From a virus, in IMG/VR virus record IMGVR_UViG_3300020049_013145: a stretch of 42,406 nucleotides of DNA; one strand, given 5' to 3'. The notes beneath the pieces are model-generated. The model saw only the letters and a program-made list of their open reading frames with translations. It was not told the DNA's origin and did not search any database. Both the position numbers and the translations under genes were made by a program. Positions within the stretch are counted from its first letter, which is position 1. Each line of letters starts with the position of its first letter. Below are positions 1 through 42,406 of the stretch, piece after piece.

Positions 1-121
1 CCTCTCAGCCAACAACGCACCACTCCTGGCCAAGGCTTTGTTGCGGGCTATGGAATCGCTAAAACGCACCCAGAACCGATTCTTAAATGAGGCACCAACA
101 GGCCTTCCTTTAGAGTCTAGA
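1..121. repeat. Terminal direct repeat, copy 1 (identical to 42286-42406)
   Basis: The first 121 nt (cctctcagccaacaacgcacc...tagagtctaga) are reproduced exactly as the last 121 nt of the window. Confidence 0.95.
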
Positions 122-26155: not shown

Positions 26156-26602
26156 TTAATCTAGCCTCCGTGCATAAATGTAATCAACGAGCTCGTATCC
26201 CATGCGCTCAAGTAACGGACCGAAGTTATGAGCTGCCTTCACGTGGTGATAGACGGCCTGAACTCCTTCTTCAGCCAGCGCCTCATCACACCATTTGATC
26301 AATCGTCCACCTGCACCTCTGTGGTTTGGATGGATAAATAGAATGTCTTGGACTGCTTGCAGTGAGTCTTTGTAATGGATGTTGTGGTTGATGAAGAAGA
26401 CGGAATAACCAACAAGAGAGTCGTCTTCAGATCTTGCGGTGAACACACGTAGCATTCCAGCATCCTGCATCATGAGGTATCTATCGTAGTCTGGATTGAG
26501 AGGGATGTCCTGATAGTGAGCAATCTGCTTATAGTGGATATCAAAGAGAGGAATCATCTCAGACATCAACTCACGTGTTGCTACCTCAAGTGAGTACTTC
26601 AT
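26156..26602 (-). CDS. GNAT-family N-acetyltransferase
   Basis: Motif A-like IHPNHRGAGGRLIKWCDEALAEEG. 148 aa. Confidence 0.7.
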   Translation of the reverse strand: MKYSLEVATRELMSEMIPLFDIHYKQIAHYQDIPLNPDYDRYLMMQDAGMLRVFTARSEDDSLVGYSVFFINHNIHYKDSLQAVQDILFIHPNHRGAGGRLIKWCDEALAEEGVQAVYHHVKAAHNFGPLLERMGYELVDYIYARRLD

Positions 26603-27195
26603 CGCTCCACCCTGAACTCTGGTGCCACAGCATCAATGATCAAATGAATTCGTGGAGCATCGCTGTGGTTTGCAACGTAGTGTGGTGCCTTGTGGTTGAA
26701 CCACCATGCATCACCTGGTGCCATGTGAACGAACTCTCCGCCATGATCACTTAGTTTTGAGTAGAAAATGTTTTGGTCTTTTGATTCAAGACAGATATGA
26801 AAGCGCTCATAGTAATCAGCATAGGCACCTTGATCTTCGTGAGGAGAGATCTCTCCACCAGGCTTAAGGTTGACAATCAGCACACGCCCAAGTTCGGTAG
26901 ATCCTACCGATGCTAGCAAACCTGAGATCAGTTCCTTTGCCTCTGGAAGTAGCTCAATTGCCGGATAATCGACGGCGGGTATCTCAGTGAATACGGCATC
27001 AACAGTCTGGGTTTTACACCAGCGCAAGAAGATGGATTCGGTGTCGATATGAGGAGAGCCTGTGGTCGTTTGTCGTGCGGTGATTTCACTCCACAACTCT
27101 GGTTTTGCCTGAATGGACTTGAGTAGAGGTTCTACATTTAATCCAGTGGCCAAGAGTTGGAAGTTTTCAAACATGCCTATTATTATCGAGCCCAC
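26599..27195 (-). CDS. Aspartyl/asparaginyl beta-hydroxylase-like cupin (2OG/Fe(II) oxygenase superfamily)
   Basis: LKPGGEISPHED ... WWFNHKAPHYVANHSDAPRIHLIID matches the His-x-Asp...His cupin pattern of this family. Confidence 0.7.
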   Translation of the reverse strand: MGSIIIGMFENFQLLATGLNVEPLLKSIQAKPELWSEITARQTTTGSPHIDTESIFLRWCKTQTVDAVFTEIPAVDYPAIELLPEAKELISGLLASVGSTELGRVLIVNLKPGGEISPHEDQGAYADYYERFHICLESKDQNIFYSKLSDHGGEFVHMAPGDAWWFNHKAPHYVANHSDAPRIHLIIDAVAPEFRVER

Positions 27196-31218: not shown

Positions 31219-31710
31219 CTAAATCACGCTAGCCAACGGAACCAATCCGTAGCCTTTGTTCCTGTTTTTAAAAGAAAAAGACATATATCTATCTTTCTTT
31301 GTTTCTTTGTTCTTATTATGCGGGTCACATTTTGAGACCCTACCCGCGTCATAAAATCTACGGCCAAGGATTTTAGCTATGTGTCTTTTATGGGATGACA
31401 TGGTGTCACTAAACTGTCTGTGCATGAGTCTCAATTTCCCTCGAAGTAGATCTGGATTAAAACGGTATACATTAGATTGTCGATAAAAGCGCTCAGTCTT
31501 TATGACCCTTTTCTCTTTCAAGAGCTTCAATGCCCTAAAGACTGTAGCTCTACTCAACCCACAATCTTTGGCGATAGTGCAGACCTTTGGGAATACACGA
31601 GGAACCTTGTCTAGTAAATAGATCGCTACCTTGAGAGAGGACCCCTTAAAGTCTTTTAAGTTCTCTGTGATTTGAACATTGACCGAGACGAAGTTGGCAT
31701 TAGATCGCAT
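31219..31710 (-). CDS. Winged-helix DNA-binding protein (replication initiator or regulator candidate)
   Basis: HTH IAKDCGLSRATVFRALKLLKEKRVI. First gene of the minus-strand block, with a basic C-terminus. Confidence 0.7.
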   Translation of the reverse strand: MRSNANFVSVNVQITENLKDFKGSSLKVAIYLLDKVPRVFPKVCTIAKDCGLSRATVFRALKLLKEKRVIKTERFYRQSNVYRFNPDLLRGKLRLMHRQFSDTMSSHKRHIAKILGRRFYDAGRVSKCDPHNKNKETKKDRYMSFSFKNRNKGYGLVPLASVI

Positions 31711-32886: not shown

Positions 32887-33142
32887 CGTAGTTCTTTTGA
32901 TGTGCACGCTTGTTAACGATGTTCCATCTCAGTGCCATGAGACAAGAATCAGGGCTCAGTCACACGAGGATTGTAATACGAAGGTTGTAAACTCAAACAA
33001 GAGATCCGAATTGATTAGGGCAAGAGCAGGTCTTGAGGAGAAGAAGGCCGTAGTATTTTCCTACTGCGAAACTGAAGGCAACCAAGACGTTAACCCCTAC
33101 GATGAGATCGTAAAAGAAATGATCAGAGAGGAATCGATATGA
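32873..33142 (+). CDS. Hypothetical protein (89 aa)
   Basis: ORF track. The stop overlaps the next ATG. Confidence 0.6.
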   Translation: MTLYNVVLLMCTLVNDVPSQCHETRIRAQSHEDCNTKVVNSNKRSELIRARAGLEEKKAVVFSYCETEGNQDVNPYDEIVKEMIREESI

Positions 33143-33339
33143 ATCACCAGATGCTAACACCAGAAGAACTTGCAGATAGATGGGCAAACGACGTGAGGAC
33201 ACTTGCTAACTGGAGATCCCTTAAACGAGGACCGGCCTACGTTAAGATCGGTAGTTCTGTGATGTACAGAATTGAAGACGTGTTGGAGTACGAGAAAAAT
33301 AACACAGTCCACACAAGTGAAAGCGTGAATAAAAAATGA
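33139..33339 (+). CDS. AlpA/excisionase-type (MerR-like) HTH protein
   Basis: LTPEELADRWANDVRTLANWRSLKRGPAYVKIGSSVMYRIEDVLEYE. Confidence 0.7.
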   Translation: MNHQMLTPEELADRWANDVRTLANWRSLKRGPAYVKIGSSVMYRIEDVLEYEKNNTVHTSESVNKK

Positions 33340-33929
33340 GACTCTTAAGCCTTCTCCTACTAACCCTTCTCTGTTCATGCGGCAAAGGACCAAACGTCAC
33401 GACCAATGCACCAACGTGTGTAGAGAGACCATACACACCTGATGGACGCGGCAATGTCGTGTGTAGTGTTTACGCCTTACCTTCATCCACCACAGCGCTA
33501 CCAGACTATGACTCACTAGATGAGATTAATCATCACAATGACATGCGCTGGGAAAGCATAGACATCGCTCCATCAAGTCCTTCTGATAAGTTCACACCAT
33601 TTATTGGAGGAGAGTTCGATAACTTGAAAACAAACTTTGGTGTGAGGTGCGGTACCAGGATTGTTATTCCACAAACTGGTAACTACACCTTCACTCTCGA
33701 GTCTGAAGACGGATCTAAGCTATTTATCGATGGCGCTGAGATCATAGATAACGATGGCGTTCATTCCTATCAGGCAAGATCTGGCACTGTTGTGCTTAAT
33801 GCTGGCAATCATAAGCTGCATCTAAAGTCTTTTGTCGGATCAAACGGGAAAGGTCTAACTCTTTCATGGTCGTTCAACGGTGGGCCAACGACAGTAATTC
33901 CAGCCAGTCAGTACACTTTAAATAGGTAA
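33336..33929 (+). CDS. Lipoprotein with a PA14-like carbohydrate-binding domain
   Basis: Lipobox LLCSC. GNYTFTLESEDGSKLFIDGAEIIDNDG...GTVVLNAGNHKLHLKSF...GLTLSW matches the PA14 pattern. Confidence 0.7.
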   Translation: MRLLSLLLLTLLCSCGKGPNVTTNAPTCVERPYTPDGRGNVVCSVYALPSSTTALPDYDSLDEINHHNDMRWESIDIAPSSPSDKFTPFIGGEFDNLKTNFGVRCGTRIVIPQTGNYTFTLESEDGSKLFIDGAEIIDNDGVHSYQARSGTVVLNAGNHKLHLKSFVGSNGKGLTLSWSFNGGPTTVIPASQYTLNR

Positions 33930-34087: not shown

Positions 34088-34308
34088 TGAGTACAGACTA
34101 TAGAATCGCTTGCTACACCTGTAAATCCGATGGACCTACCTATGCATCTAGTTCAATAGCTTACGGCTTCAAGGTTTGGACTACAAACGAAGAACTTTTA
34201 GCATGGCTTGGACACAAGGAGTCTATTGGTTATCACGAGGGGCATGACCTTAGAATTATTAGTGAGCACACAGATGTTCCATGGGAAGTTGGGGAGTCGG
34301 AAAAATGA
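34087..34308 (+). CDS. Hypothetical protein (73 aa)
   Basis: ORF track, coupled at both ends. Confidence 0.6.
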   Translation: MSTDYRIACYTCKSDGPTYASSSIAYGFKVWTTNEELLAWLGHKESIGYHEGHDLRIISEHTDVPWEVGESEK

Positions 34309-34487
34309 AAACCTTCGTATTCAAAGTGCCTGTCCAAGAGATCTGGGTAGTAGAGGTTCAAGCTAAAACAGAAGAAGAAGCTTGGGAAATTCTTAGTTCT
34401 GGAGGAGGCTCTCAAACATGTAGCATTGCAGGAACCACAAAGTCTGGTGATGCAGAGCTTGATAGAGTTCTAAATACTAAGAGGTGA
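34305..34487 (+). CDS. Hypothetical protein (60 aa)
   Basis: ATG 34305 overlaps the upstream stop (ATGA). Confidence 0.55.
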   Translation: MKTFVFKVPVQEIWVVEVQAKTEEEAWEILSSGGGSQTCSIAGTTKSGDAELDRVLNTKR

Positions 34488-34780
34488 TACGGATGAGAAC
34501 ACCTAAAGAGTGCGCTGAATCGATTATAAAATACATGAATTTTCTAGGATTATCAGATGAGAATTCTGATGAAACTTACTTATTTGCAAAAACCTTTCTA
34601 AGGTATGAGGAAGCCTTAGAGTTTATGTACGCACACCCTGATGGGCTTGATTCTAGATCTGACTGCTTTAAACACGAAGCAACGCAAGCTCTTGGGAAGA
34701 AGTGTTTTGAAGATTGTAGTGTGTGCTTAGATGAAGCAGACGAGTTTAAAGAACTATACAAAGACGCGCCACAAGATTAG
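34484..34780 (+). CDS. Hypothetical protein (98 aa; ATG 34493 is an alternative start)
   Basis: ORF track. GTGA overlap with the upstream gene. Confidence 0.6.
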   Translation: MIRMRTPKECAESIIKYMNFLGLSDENSDETYLFAKTFLRYEEALEFMYAHPDGLDSRSDCFKHEATQALGKKCFEDCSVCLDEADEFKELYKDAPQD

Positions 34781-34867
34781 TCGAGCGGCGGGATTCGAAC
34801 CAGCGCCCTCTTCGGTGAACATTTCTTATTCATGATCGAAGCGCTCTGACCTCTGAGCTACGCCCAC
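34780..34867 (-). tRNA. tRNA-like gene, anticodon CAU (Met or Ile2), with a 15-nt insertion at position 37/38
   Basis: The reverse complement parses as GTGGGCG-TA-GCTC-AGAGGTCA-GAGC-G-CTTCG-ATCATG[AATAAGAAATGTTCA]C-CGAAG-AGGGC-GCTGG-TTCGAAT-CCCGC-CGCTCGA-C. That is 88 nt, or 73 nt without the insert. It has a canonical GTTCGAATC T-loop and a GG in the D-loop. The acceptor stem has a 1:72 mismatch and two G-U pairs. No CCA is encoded. Confidence 0.6.
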
Positions 34868-34896
34868 TTAAATAGTCTCATGAATTAATTGGATGT

Positions 34897-35088
34897 CTAG
34901 CGTGAAGAAGACAGGCCTGACCCCAGGGAGGAATCAAGCCCATCAGTGTTCCCGTTTGTCTCAACTTGCTGATCAAGGCTTAGGGAAAATCTAGTCTCTA
35001 AGGCAGGCAATTTTTCAGCCGCCTCAAGCTCAAGTCTTTCGCGTTCTTTAGCGCGTTCAAATATCTCGCTTAAGTCAACGTCGTTCAT
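34897..35088 (-). CDS. Hypothetical protein (63 aa)
   Basis: ORF track. Same strand as, and 29 nt upstream of, the tRNA-like gene. Weak SD. Confidence 0.45.
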   Translation of the reverse strand: MNDVDLSEIFERAKERERLELEAAEKLPALETRFSLSLDQQVETNGNTDGLDSSLGSGLSSSR

Positions 35089-35195
35089 AACAAAACTGTT
35101 TACCCTGGCGTTGCTAGGAATGCAACAATATCTATTGCATGACCTTTAATCAGGTGATACCGAATGTTCAAACTTGATAACGAAAGGCGCACAAC

Positions 35196-35408
35196 ATGGC
35201 AAAGATCACAATCACAATACTTGACGATTCCGACGGTAAAGTAAAGGTCGCTGTAGATCCGTCATTTGAAATCATGGCTAAGATGGCAAACGCTGGCGAG
35301 CAGATGACCTCTGCCCACGCCTACGCTCTTCGTGCCCTTCGCGCAATTAGAGAAGAATCAAAAGCCCAAGGGACTAGCAAGATCCTAATCCCAAGAATTG
35401 GATTGTAG
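35196..35408 (+). CDS. Hypothetical protein (70 aa)
   Basis: ORF track. GAAAGG upstream. Confidence 0.6.
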   Translation: MAKITITILDDSDGKVKVAVDPSFEIMAKMANAGEQMTSAHAYALRALRAIREESKAQGTSKILIPRIGL

Positions 35409-35974: not shown

Positions 35975-36714
<740 letters not shown>

Positions 36715-36718
<4 letters not shown>

Positions 36719-42104: not shown

Positions 42105-42406
42105 CCAACCTAGAGCGATTATGCAAAGAAGTGCTCGAGGCGAGCGAGAAGGCTACGGAAGCGGGTAAATATTGGACTACTAAATATGGCAATGCAGTTC
42201 AAAGCAAAGAAGAGACAATATGTGTTCTGAATGATGGAGAATATATTGAAAATCCAAATCGCGAATCGGATGCAGCATATATCATCCTCTCAGCCAACAA
42301 CGCACCACTCCTGGCCAAGGCTTTGTTGCGGGCTATGGAATCGCTAAAACGCACCCAGAACCGATTCTTAAATGAGGCACCAACAGGCCTTCCTTTAGAG
42401 TCTAGA
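42101..42406 (+). CDS. Ead/Ea22-like protein, N-terminal part (continues at nt 122 after the junction)
   Basis: ATG 42101 (ATGA overlap). 102 codons run to the window end with no stop. EASEKATEAGKYW parallels EASEKATYGPWQL of 37140-37517. Confidence 0.8.
   Translation, partial: MTNLERLCKEVLEASEKATEAGKYWTTKYGNAVQSKEETICVLNDGEYIENPNRESDAAYIILSANNAPLLAKALLRAMESLKRTQNRFLNEAPTGLPLESR
42286..42406. repeat. Terminal direct repeat, copy 2 (identical to 1-121)
   Basis: Exact 121-nt match read directly. Confidence 0.95.

What the first reader, a model, noticed from the sequence alone, without database searches (positions are those of the whole stretch)
34780..34867. Phage tRNA(CAU)-like gene interrupted by a 15-nt insert exactly at the canonical 37/38 intron site
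**Seen in sequence.** The minus strand folds arithmetically into a 73-nt cloverleaf, with stems and loops of 7/2/4/8/4/1/5/7/5/5/5/7/5/7/1 nt. It has a D-loop GG, T-loop GTTCGAATC, U33 and anticodon CAT (34834-34832).

Fifteen extra nucleotides, AATAAGAAATGTTCA (plus-strand 34816-34830), sit between G37 and C38. The anticodon stem CTTCG/CGAAG closes around them.

The insert can pair with the anticodon loop in two ways:
- TGAAT/GTTCA, 5 bp, with a new 7-nt loop.
- ATCA/TGTT, 3 of 4 pairs, flanked by 3-nt bulges TGA and CAC. This recalls a relaxed bulge-helix-bulge motif.

**Established knowledge.** Bacterial tRNA introns are group I introns of hundreds of nt. Short introns at 37/38 are an archaeal and eukaryotic feature handled by splicing endonucleases. 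Phages are known to alter tRNA anticodon loops to escape anticodon nucleases.

**Inference.** The endolysin, lipoboxes and sigma factor indicate a bacterial host, so there are four possibilities:
- a tRNA processed by an unknown route
- a decoy or nuclease-resistant tRNA mimic
- a tRNA with a grossly expanded anticodon arm
- a decaying pseudogene

The acceptor stem is imperfect (G1xA72 plus two G-U pairs), which tempers confidence.
Basis: partly seen in the sequence, partly recalled or inferred. Interest (0 to 1): 0.72.

Follow-up and report, generated by a model that had tools for sequence, protein, structure and literature searches.

The report
Phage tRNA gene with hairpin insert
A small bacterial virus carries one real tRNA-derived gene whose anticodon loop is blown up from 7 to 22 bases by a 15-base hairpin; as written it cannot read a codon and is most likely a decaying copy, but well-formed tRNA genes of large phages carry the same odd insert, and nobody knows how or whether it is removed.

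Summary
Minus strand 34780-34867 is tRNA-derived: Rfam tRNA scores 35.4 bits against a cut-off of 29. ARAGORN in intron mode gives one call in the window, 73 nt plus a 15-nt insert.

Three corrections:
- The "exact 37/38" position is arbitrary. The 22-nt loop can be cut in eight registers. The hairpin boundaries favour 36/37 (CAU, A37), and the 35/36 register gives a Val(CAC)-type loop.
- The bulge-helix-bulge reading does not appear in low-energy folds. Only a 5-6 bp hairpin does.

The window is a complete, circular-type genome of about 42.3 kb from an epsilon15/BPP-1-like podovirus of bacteria. About 50 scanned ORFs showed no integrase, EndA, RtcB or RNA ligase. Its relatives carry integrases at the equivalent place. 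The tRNA-like gene is a singleton: none of 51 related loci has it, and the reference genomes hold no exact source for its 5' half.

A narrow scan of IMG/VR found well-formed tRNA genes of large phages with the same layout (five loop bases, a hairpin, a short tail). This matches the "enigmatic introns" of Lak megaphages.

Best reading: a degenerate, non-decoding tRNA gene (about 0.45). Splicing or a non-decoding role is not excluded.

The parts
34780..34867 (-). tRNA-derived gene, 88 nt (a 73-nt cloverleaf plus 15 extra nt in the anticodon loop). CCA is not encoded and the discriminator is C.
   Evidence: Rfam RF00005 35.4 bits; ARAGORN -i score 105.1; sequence.
34815..34836 (-). Expanded anticodon loop, 22 nt: AUCAUGAAUAAGAAAUGUUCAC.
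   Evidence: It is closed by the perfect 5-bp stem CUUCG/CGAAG (34837-34841 / 34810-34814).
34817..34831 (-). 15-nt insert as defined by the hairpin boundaries: GAAUA-AGAAA-UGUUC. This lies between U36 and A37.
   Evidence: Constrained folds. The 6-bp version UGAAUA/UGUUCA is in the minimum-energy fold.
34832..34834 (-). CAT, the candidate anticodon, preceded by U33. Cutting in the 35/36 register would give CAC instead.
   Evidence: Sequence; register analysis.
34788..34804 (-). T arm GCUGG-UUCGAAU-CCCGC, with a U51xC63 mismatch (34802 x 34790).
   Evidence: Rfam NC line and ARAGORN drawing.
34484..34780 (+). Convergent 98-aa ORF. Its TAG stop overlaps the discriminator base of the tRNA-like gene. 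It is an orphan.
   Evidence: The only homologue in 5.8 billion proteins is itself.
34897..35088 (-). 63-aa ORF on the same strand, 29 nt upstream of the tRNA-like gene. It is an orphan and its reality is unproven.
   Evidence: Its only real match in 1.84 billion representatives is itself.
34635..34653 (.). Left arm of a 19-nt inverted repeat (16 nt exact) that brackets the tRNA-like gene.
34931..34949 (.). Right arm of the same inverted repeat.
33139..33339 (+). Excisionase-like HTH_17 ORF. In relatives an integrase gene lies next to it; here it is followed by a PA14 lipoprotein gene.
   Evidence: Pfam PF12728 26.7 bits; relatives; PA14 domain.

Best explanation
**What it is.** This is a genuine tRNA-derived gene on the minus strand of a complete, integrase-less epsilon15/BPP-1-like podovirus genome. 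A 15-nt A+T-rich insertion sits directly 3' of the anticodon. It pairs end to end into a small hairpin. Any transcript would therefore fold into a normal acceptor/D/T body with a long interrupted anticodon arm: a 5-bp stem, a small internal loop, a 5-6 bp helix and a pentaloop. No 7-nt anticodon loop is presented.

**What it does.** In that form it cannot decode. Several features argue against an active gene:
- two stem mismatches (G1xA72 and U51xC63)
- unusual A32 and C73
- no encoded CCA
- no recognisable promoter or terminator
- antisense orientation inside the early operon
- no splicing or repair enzymes in the phage
- no relatives that share it

The most likely reading is a degenerating, non-decoding copy of a phage tRNA gene.

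**Possible origin.** It may be left over from a lysogeny-linked tRNA. Related phages carry integrases that target tRNA genes at the equivalent place, and this phage has lost its integrase.

**Shown versus inferred.**
- Shown: tRNA homology, the insert, the hairpin, the defects, and the absence of integrase and RNA enzymes.
- Inferred: loss of function and the origin.
For: **tRNA homology**
- Rfam and ARAGORN intron mode both call it.

**Defects and low quality**
- Mismatches are shown.
- The ARAGORN score is at the 1.4th percentile of real tRNAs.
- The fold is no better than shuffles.
- The cloverleaf with the extended arm is -22.9 kcal/mol against a minimum of -23.8.

**Signals and enzymes**
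- There is no sigma-70-type promoter and no terminator next to it.
- No integrase was found.
- No EndA, RtcB or RNA ligase was found in about 50 scanned ORFs.

**Genome context**
- The genome is complete: 121-bp terminal direct repeat.
- Relatives have HTH_17 plus an integrase, or a serine recombinase, near the shared 142-aa gene.
- One related prophage abuts a host tRNA-Gln. Another carries a tRNA 3' fragment next to its integrase.
- Phage tRNAs that matter only for lysogeny are known (PMC10865867).

**No conservation**
- 0 of 36 IMG/VR loci and 0 of 15 Logan/ENA/NCBI loci carry it.
- The exact insert is absent from 185,579 species genomes.
Against: - All universally conserved tertiary nucleotides and three of the four stems are intact.
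- Two of the four stem departures from Watson-Crick pairing are G-U pairs, which still pair.
- The body is G+C-rich (63% by ARAGORN's count) in a neighbourhood of about 43% G+C. That fits recent origin or selection.
- The insert is not junk-like. It pairs end to end; my estimate of the chance is about (6/16)^5 = 0.007.
- It sits where well-formed tRNA genes of large phages carry hairpin inserts: L197, L223 and L187, at 54-62 Rfam bits.
- Compact 42-kb phage genomes rarely keep dead DNA.
- There are no close relatives, so decay could not be tested by comparison.
Confidence: 0.45

Rival explanations
1. It is a functional pre-tRNA. The hairpin is an intervening sequence removed after transcription by a protein route not yet known in bacteria or phages, for example a host endonuclease plus an RtcB-type ligase. 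The product would be a decoding tRNA with loop AUCAUAC (CAU: Met or Ile2), or AUCACAC (Val) in another register.
For: - The same layout (five loop bases, a hairpin, a short tail) occurs in well-formed tRNA genes inside tRNA arrays of large tailed phages. Removing the insert there gives canonical loops: L197 CUCCUAA and L187 CUCUUAA.
- Lak megaphage tRNAs carry conserved "enigmatic introns" (PMC6784885).
- Cutting at the hairpin boundaries here gives U33, CAU and A37.
- The tertiary nucleotides are intact.
Against: - To my knowledge no non-group-I tRNA splicing is known in bacteria.
- There is no bulge-helix-bulge motif.
- The phage has no endonuclease or ligase candidates.
- A32, C73, G1xA72 and U51xC63 are poor features for a working Met, Ile or Val tRNA.
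- The gene is a singleton, so there is no conservation evidence.
- The large-phage examples differ in genome type and body quality, and they are untested too.
Confidence: 0.17
2. It is a functional tRNA-like RNA that keeps its extended anticodon arm and does not decode. It could be a decoy or sponge for a host tRNA-targeting nuclease or modification enzyme. It could also be a cis-acting RNase P/Z processing or stabilising element at the 3' end of a short minus-strand transcript (ORF63 plus the tRNA-like gene) that runs antisense to the early operon.
For: - The body elements needed for recognition by RNase P, RNase Z and the CCA-adding enzyme are intact.
- The stable alternative is a long anticodon arm.
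- It lies 29 nt downstream of a same-strand ORF, in a 415-bp gap of an otherwise tightly packed genome.
- It is bracketed by a 19-nt inverted repeat.
Against: - No promoter or terminator was detected.
- ORF63 is an orphan with a weakly placed ribosome-binding site (sequence).
- No tRNA-like families other than tRNA match.
- There is no conservation.
- Nothing links it to any defence system.
Confidence: 0.2
3. It is a recombination-site relic: an attP-type tRNA copy, or a captured attL hybrid, from an integrating ancestor. The extra 15 nt would be a scar of aberrant site-specific recombination in the anticodon loop, the usual crossover point of tRNA-targeting integrases.
For: - Relatives carry integrases in this genome region.
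- L162/L163 carry a tRNA 3' fragment with CCA just downstream of the integrase, on the opposite strand. ARAGORN intron mode miscalls it as an intron-containing tRNA.
- The window keeps an excisionase-like HTH_17 ORF but no integrase.
Against: - attP copies are normally only the 3' part of the tRNA. Here the 5' half (a canonical D arm) is present and pairs with the 3' half in 6 of 7 acceptor positions.
- No integrase remnant is detected.
- The 5' half has no exact counterpart in 185,579 species genomes. The insert is also absent from them.
- The end-to-end hairpin is not explained.
Confidence: 0.12
4. It is a chance cloverleaf-like fold with no tRNA ancestry.
For: - ARAGORN intron mode gives many spurious calls at similar scores.
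- The fold z-score is positive.
Against: - The Rfam score is above the curated threshold with near-perfect posterior probabilities.
- The exact 20-nt D-arm sequence GTAGCTCAGAGGTCAGAGCG occurs in 12 bona fide phage tRNAs (plus one 5' fragment).
- It has a canonical T loop.
- ARAGORN intron mode (inserts up to 60 nt) found nothing in 435 kb of related phage DNA.
Confidence: 0.03

Closest known systems
Short "enigmatic introns" in tRNA genes of Lak megaphages (Devoto et al. 2019, PMC6784885), together with the hairpin-insert tRNA genes I found in large IMG/VR phages (L197 6509-6609, L223 8759-8851, L187 960-1067, L205, L191)
   Same: - The virus is a bacterial one.
- The insert is tens of nucleotides or fewer, lies in the anticodon loop, and is not a group I intron.
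- In the IMG/VR cases the layout matches: anticodon stem, about five loop bases, a hairpin, then a short tail.
- L197's hairpin even starts UGAAU and ends AUUCA, like UGAAU...GUUCA here.
   Different: - Those genes sit in tRNA arrays of 70-550-kb phages.
- They have flawless stems and score 48-62 Rfam bits.
- Lak introns are conserved across cohorts.
- Here there is a single gene in a 42-kb podovirus, at 35.4 bits, with two mismatches and no relatives.
- The mechanism is unknown in all cases.
Archaeal and eukaryotic intron-containing pre-tRNAs cut by the splicing endonuclease at a bulge-helix-bulge motif
   Same: A short insert in the anticodon loop that can be written at 37/38.
   Different: - No bulge-helix-bulge structure appears in low-energy folds.
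- The register is arbitrary.
- The host is bacterial.
- No EndA or RtcB was found in the phage.
Bacterial and phage tRNA genes interrupted by group I introns
   Same: The interruption is in the anticodon loop of a bacterial-type tRNA, and CAU tRNAs are among the known hosts (from my own knowledge).
   Different: - 15 nt cannot hold a ribozyme of about 200 nt or more.
- No Rfam intron or ribozyme family matches, even at E<=5.
attP-type tRNA fragments next to phage integrases (example in a relative: L162 12333-12439)
   Same: - It lies in the accessory/lysogeny region of the same phage group.
- It is on the strand opposite to its neighbours.
- ARAGORN intron mode calls both "tRNA with intron".
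   Different: - L162 has only a real 3' half with CCA, and Rfam does not see it.
- The window has both halves and passes Rfam, but it has no integrase.
tRNA pseudogenes and tRNA gene fragments in prokaryotic genomes (a paper listed but not read: PMC9897764)
   Same: A low-scoring tRNA-like sequence with stem mismatches and a disrupted anticodon loop.
   Different: It is full length, the conserved tertiary positions are intact, and the disruption is a tidy hairpin.

Membership tests
tRNA (Rfam RF00005) | Score at or above the curated gathering threshold of the covariance model | tested here: met
   35.4 bits against 29, model positions 3-68.
tRNA (Rfam RF00005) | 7-nt anticodon loop that presents U33 and an anticodon | tested here: not met
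   The loop is 22 nt. ARAGORN without intron mode rejects it.
tRNA (Rfam RF00005) | Fully paired acceptor, D, anticodon and T stems, and conserved tertiary nucleotides | tested here: inconclusive
   - The D and anticodon stems are perfect and the tertiary nucleotides are all present.
- The acceptor stem has G1xA72 and two G-U pairs.
- The T stem has U51xC63.
Endonuclease-spliced (archaeal/eukaryotic type) pre-tRNA | Bulge-helix-bulge (or bulge-helix-loop) motif with two 3-nt bulges around a 4-bp helix at the exon-intron junctions | tested here: not met
   The proposed AUCA/UGUU helix has a U-U mismatch. It is absent from all structures within 2 kcal/mol of the optimum; only the hairpin appears.
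Endonuclease-spliced (archaeal/eukaryotic type) pre-tRNA | Intron at the canonical 37/38 position | tested here: inconclusive
   Eight registers are compatible. ARAGORN's free mode places it one base later, and the hairpin ends favour 36/37.
Endonuclease-spliced (archaeal/eukaryotic type) pre-tRNA | Splicing endonuclease and ligase available (virus or host) | tested here: not met
   None was found in about 50 phage ORFs scanned with Pfam or PHROGs. The host is unknown, so its enzymes cannot be tested.
Group I intron in tRNA | Self-splicing ribozyme core (P1-P9, about 200 nt or more) | tested here: not met
   The insert is 15 nt. No Rfam intron family matches at E<=5.
Phage tRNA genes with short hairpin inserts (Lak-type "enigmatic introns" and the IMG/VR examples) | Insert in the anticodon loop that forms a hairpin right after the anticodon, and whose removal leaves a 7-nt loop with U33 and a purine at 37 | tested here: met
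   AUCAU | GAAUA-AGAAA-UGUUC | AC. The same layout is seen in L197, L187 and L223.
Phage tRNA genes with short hairpin inserts (Lak-type "enigmatic introns" and the IMG/VR examples) | Otherwise flawless tRNA body, conserved among related phages | tested here: not met
   There are two stem mismatches, and the score is 35.4 bits against 48-62 for the examples. No relative carries it.
Phage tRNA genes with short hairpin inserts (Lak-type "enigmatic introns" and the IMG/VR examples) | Removal of the insert from the RNA | not testable with these tools
   This needs RNA data. As far as I could find, it has not been shown for any member.
attP tRNA fragment | Adjacent integrase gene | tested here: not met
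   No integrase is present in the complete genome.
attP tRNA fragment | Only the 3' part of a tRNA, identical to a host tRNA | tested here: not met
   - The element is full length with a canonical 5' half.
- The 5' half pattern hit only one unrelated tRNA-Val in 185,579 genomes.

The most novel reading that the evidence does not exclude
A small podovirus of bacteria, like several large phages, encodes a pre-tRNA whose hairpin insert next to the anticodon is cut out and the halves rejoined by a protein route not yet described in Bacteria, for example a host structure-specific endonuclease plus RtcB. This would be a third kind of tRNA splicing, and it would suggest a natural substrate for bacterial RtcB-type ligases, whose main cellular role remains unclear to my knowledge.
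Probability: 0.12. Interest if true: 0.85.

Novelty: new member of a known kind. Interest (0 to 1): 0.42.

Why it matters
**On its own.** This locus is a minor curiosity: one flawed tRNA-like gene in one uncultivated phage.

**As part of a pattern.** A narrow scan turned up hairpin inserts beside the anticodon in otherwise perfect tRNA genes of several large phages. Lak megaphages were reported to have similar "enigmatic introns".

- If those inserts are removed, bacteria or their phages have an undescribed way of splicing tRNA.
- If they are kept, phages make tRNA-shaped RNAs for something other than decoding.

**Practical points.**
- Default bacterial tRNA finders miss such genes.
- Intron modes over-call them, for instance at attP fragments.

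Tried and rejected
**Searches for relatives that carry the element (all negative)**
- blastn of 34300-35400 against GenBank phages found nothing.
- Exact and gapped patterns in IMG/VR found nothing.
- The 98-aa neighbour has no relatives in IMG/VR and is an orphan in the 5.8-billion-protein set.
- Look-ups of the window's own proteins in the contig index failed.
- 35 portal-related IMG/VR loci and one more from the 142-aa protein carry no tRNA of any kind, even in intron mode.
- 15 loci around homologues of the 142-aa and 70-aa proteins lack the element.

**Collection scans**
It gave isotype information but no relatives. Its single long-gap hit (L112, a G+C-rich 24-nt gap) was not followed up.
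- The genome scans found no exact insert and no source for the 5' half.

**Other negatives**
- ORF63 has no homologues.
- The attP idea led to a useful control (L162/L163). I rejected it as the main explanation because there is no integrase and the 5' half is present.
- The initiator-tRNA reading of the 1:72 mismatch fails. The anticodon stem lacks the three G-C pairs, and position 11:24 is C:G (sequence).
- Neither a Val nor a Met origin could be preferred: identity is 75-79% to both.
- Literature searches found no described mechanism for short inserts in phage tRNAs.
Full report
**1. What is in the sequence**

The minus strand from 34867 to 34780 reads:

GTGGGCG TA GCTC AGAGGTCA GAGC G CTTCG ATCATGAATAAGAAATGTTCAC CGAAG AGGGC GCTGG TTCGAAT CCCGC CGCTCGA C.

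CAT is at 34834-34832 and its 15-nt insert is at 34816-34830.
- Rfam's tRNA model matches 34783-34865 on the minus strand. The score is 35.4 bits (gathering score 29, E = 7e-4 for the window), with a 20-nt insertion state in the anticodon loop and high posterior probabilities elsewhere.
- It is the only Rfam family that matches the 900 bases around it, even at E <= 5.
- ARAGORN as normally run finds no tRNA in the window.
- With intron detection at the default threshold, ARAGORN makes exactly one call in 42 kb. This is tRNA-Met(cat), 73 nt with a 15-nt intron, score 105.1.
- The same setting (inserts up to 60 nt) gave nothing in 435 kb of DNA from related phages.
- The universally conserved positions are all present: U8, A14, G15:C48, G18G19, A21, G53-T54-T55-C56, A58 and C61.

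So this is a tRNA-derived sequence and not a chance fold.

**2. Corrections to the observation**

This adds to G1xA72 and the two G-U pairs in the acceptor stem.
- *The insert position is not determined.* The 22-nt loop can be reduced to 7 nt in eight registers. ARAGORN's free mode places the insert one base later than its fixed 37/38 mode. If the stem-closed arm is folded, the only structures within 2 kcal/mol are a hairpin, UGAAUA/UGUUCA or GAAUA/UGUUC around AGAAA.
  - Taking the hairpin as the insert (34831-34817) puts it between positions 36 and 37. That leaves AUCAUAC: U33, CAU, A37.
  - The 35/36 register leaves AUCACAC, a Val(CAC)-type loop.
- *No bulge-helix-bulge.* The proposed AUCA/UGUU pairing with 3-nt bulges does not appear among the low-energy structures.
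- *Overall quality is low.*
  - The whole 88-mer folds no better than shuffled versions (z = +0.63).
  - The cloverleaf with the extended arm is within 1 kcal/mol of the optimum: -22.9 against -23.8.
  - ARAGORN's 105.1 lies at the 1.4th percentile of 278 ordinary tRNAs in the DNA I fetched (median 119.4).
  - ARAGORN's intron mode made 36 mostly spurious calls at scores of 100-106 in 1.45 Mb.
  - The ARAGORN call alone would therefore not be convincing. The Rfam score carries the case.

**3. Isotype**

- A metagenome scan for the D arm plus anticodon stem with any loop returned 120 hits (GGTCAGAGCGCTTCG, then 7-37 nt, then CGAAGAGG). Of these, 116 were tRNA-Val, 4 were tRNA-Ile(GAU) and none had CAU.
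- The exact D-arm sequence GTAGCTCAGAGGTCAGAGCG also occurs in IMG/VR phage tRNAs of many isotypes, including four tRNA-Met(CAU).
- The de-inserted sequence is 75-79% identical to both Val and Met tRNAs.
- The 5' half has no exact counterpart in 185,579 species genomes. The one hit to a relaxed pattern is an unrelated tRNA-Val(GAC).
- The discriminator is C and CCA is not encoded.
- The 1:72 mismatch does not make it an initiator. The anticodon stem lacks the three G-C pairs, and position 11:24 is C:G.

The label tRNA(CAU) is therefore one possibility and not a finding.

**4. Genome context**

- The window has a 121-bp direct repeat at its ends. It is therefore a complete, circular-type assembly of about 42.3 kb.
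- It is an epsilon15/BPP-1-like podovirus. It has:
  - a T7-type portal (PF12236), 48% identical to that of epsilon15
  - a GP7 capsid protein, Bbp16 and Bbp19
  - a 2657-aa LPD22/LPD3 protein
  - a sigma-factor-like protein
  - a Sak4-like ATPase
- Structural genes run on the minus strand up to about 31.7 kb. Early genes run on the plus strand from about 32.2 kb.
- The tRNA-like gene lies antisense within the early block, in a 415-bp gap. Its discriminator base overlaps the stop codon of a convergent 98-aa orphan ORF. A 63-aa orphan ORF lies 29 nt upstream on the same strand.
- No sigma-70-type promoter and no terminator next to the gene were found.
- Pfam and PHROG scans of about 50 ORFs found no integrase, splicing endonuclease, RtcB, RNA ligase or kinase-phosphatase.

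**5. Relatives**

- The neighbouring 142-aa protein has 305 homologues. Many come from contigs of 38-46 kb.
- Where I could read the context, these relatives are temperate and mosaic:
  - L157 (82% identity) has HTH_17, then a tyrosine integrase.
  - A 43.5-kb JGI contig has the same pair.
  - L160 is a prophage whose serine recombinase abuts a host tRNA-Gln.
  - L162/L163 have a tyrosine integrase followed, on the opposite strand, by a tRNA 3' fragment ending in CCA.
- That last fragment is called "tRNA-Asp with a 31-nt intron" by ARAGORN intron mode (score 100.8). Rfam does not see it. This is a useful example of the artefact class.
- The window keeps an excisionase-like HTH_17 ORF (33139-33339), but a PA14 lipoprotein gene follows it. 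No integrase remnant exists anywhere in the window.
- None of the 36 IMG/VR loci or the 15 Logan/ENA/NCBI loci contains anything like the window's tRNA.

Conservation therefore could not be tested.

**6. The same layout elsewhere**

I scanned IMG/VR for this type of D arm followed by a T loop at more than the normal distance. It returned 37 loci.

- Many are tRNAs with long variable arms.
- Several are otherwise flawless tRNA genes with an enlarged anticodon loop:
  - L197 6509-6609 (54.1 bits): CUCCU, a 10-bp hairpin UGAAUCCACG/UGUGGAUUCA, then CAAUAA.
  - L187 960-1067 (56.2 bits): CUCUU, a hairpin, then AA.
  - L223 8759-8851 (61.5 bits): a 20-nt insert.
  - L205 and L191 (48-54 bits).
- L186 and L174, found in other scans, also have long inserts.
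- L197 lies in an array of 17 tRNA genes. L197 and L223 have PHROG hits typical of tailed phages.
- In the clean cases, about five loop bases precede the hairpin. Removing the insert restores a canonical loop.
- The window's element fits that layout: AUCAU, GAAUA-AGAAA-UGUUC, AC.
- Lak megaphages were reported to carry tRNAs with conserved "enigmatic introns", said at the time to be the first in phage tRNAs (PMC6784885; preprint).
- My literature searches found no described mechanism for them.

**7. Interpretation**

*Shown*
- It is a real tRNA-derived gene.
- It has a 15-nt hairpin-forming insert in the anticodon loop.
- It has two stem mismatches.
- The phage has no splicing enzymes and no integrase.
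- No relatives share the gene.
- The layout recurs in large phages.

*Inferred*
- As transcribed, the RNA would have a tRNA body with a long interrupted anticodon arm. It could not decode.
- I rank a degenerating gene first (about 0.45), given the defects, the odd A32 and C73, the antisense position, the lack of signals and the lack of enzymes.
- It may be a tRNA once tied to lysogeny in a lineage that has lost its integrase. Phage tRNAs needed only for lysogeny are known (PMC10865867).

*Against decay*
- The tertiary positions are intact.
- The body is G+C-rich in an A+T-rich neighbourhood.
- The hairpin is tidy and pairs end to end.
- Large phages carry the same layout in good tRNA genes.

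*Rivals*
- A functional tRNA-like RNA that keeps the long arm, as a decoy or a processing element: about 0.2.
- True removal of the insert by an unknown route: about 0.17.
- A recombination-site relic: about 0.12.
- Chance: about 0.03.

**8. Verdict**

- The archaeal-style reading is not supported.
- The locus is best filed as a flawed new member of the poorly understood set of phage tRNA genes with short inserts in the anticodon loop.
- Its interest lies mostly in that wider pattern.

Noticed in passing
window 34635-34653 and 34931-34949: A 19-nt inverted repeat (16 nt exact, CTGATGGGCTTGATTC) brackets the tRNA-like gene, with 277 nt between the arms. One arm lies in the 98-aa ORF and the other in the minus-strand 63-aa ORF, so both encode DGLDS from the same DNA. 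It could mark an invertible or mobile segment, or a long-range RNA stem. Inversion would put the tRNA-like gene in the sense of the early operon. No recombinase gene is present.
   Followed up: partly
L197 6509-6609, L223 8759-8851, L187 960-1067, L205 265-356, L191 10645-10745, L186 420-535, L174 9757-9869: These are well-formed tRNA genes of large IMG/VR phages (Rfam 40-62 bits) with hairpin inserts of 18 to about 45 nt in the anticodon loop. Default ARAGORN missed or mis-typed most of them. L197's hairpin begins UGAAU and ends AUUCA, like the window's.
   Followed up: partly
L162 12333-12439 and L163 2420-2526: A tRNA 3' fragment with CCA lies just downstream of a tyrosine integrase in a related phage and is probably its attP core. 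ARAGORN intron mode reports it as "tRNA-Asp(atc) with a 31-nt intron", but Rfam finds nothing there.
   Followed up: yes
window 1-121 and 42286-42406: A 121-bp exact direct repeat at the two ends of the window indicates a circular or terminally redundant complete genome of about 42,285 bp.
   Followed up: yes
window 35975-36718 (+): A 247-aa ORF has a tract of about 100 residues that is almost pure alanine, with scattered Tyr and Asp. It arises from GCN trinucleotide repeats, and long repetitive ORFs open in other frames and on the other strand. It has no Pfam match.
   Followed up: no
window 26156-27195 (-): A GNAT acetyltransferase-like ORF and an Asp/Asn beta-hydroxylase (cupin) ORF sit between the portal and terminase genes. 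This is unusual cargo inside a packaging/head module.
   Followed up: no
window 33139-33929 (+): An excisionase-like HTH_17 ORF is followed by a PA14-domain lipoprotein gene. In relatives an integrase gene lies next to the HTH_17 ORF. The genome has no integrase, but it has a RepL-like HTH protein (31219-31710), which would fit a non-integrating lifestyle.
   Followed up: partly
L201, L208, L210, L221 (e.g. L201 7549-7672): ARAGORN reports a tRNA-Arg(cct) with a 47-nt "intron" that itself contains a T-arm-like GGTTCGAATCC. It is identical in four large-phage contigs and recalls the Lak "intron that encodes a tRNA". It may simply be two overlapping tRNA-like units.
   Followed up: no
L112 1268-1314: This was the only metagenome hit with a long gap (24 nt, G+C-rich) between the tRNA-Val-type anticodon-stem halves, on a 1.3-kb contig. 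I did not examine it.
   Followed up: no
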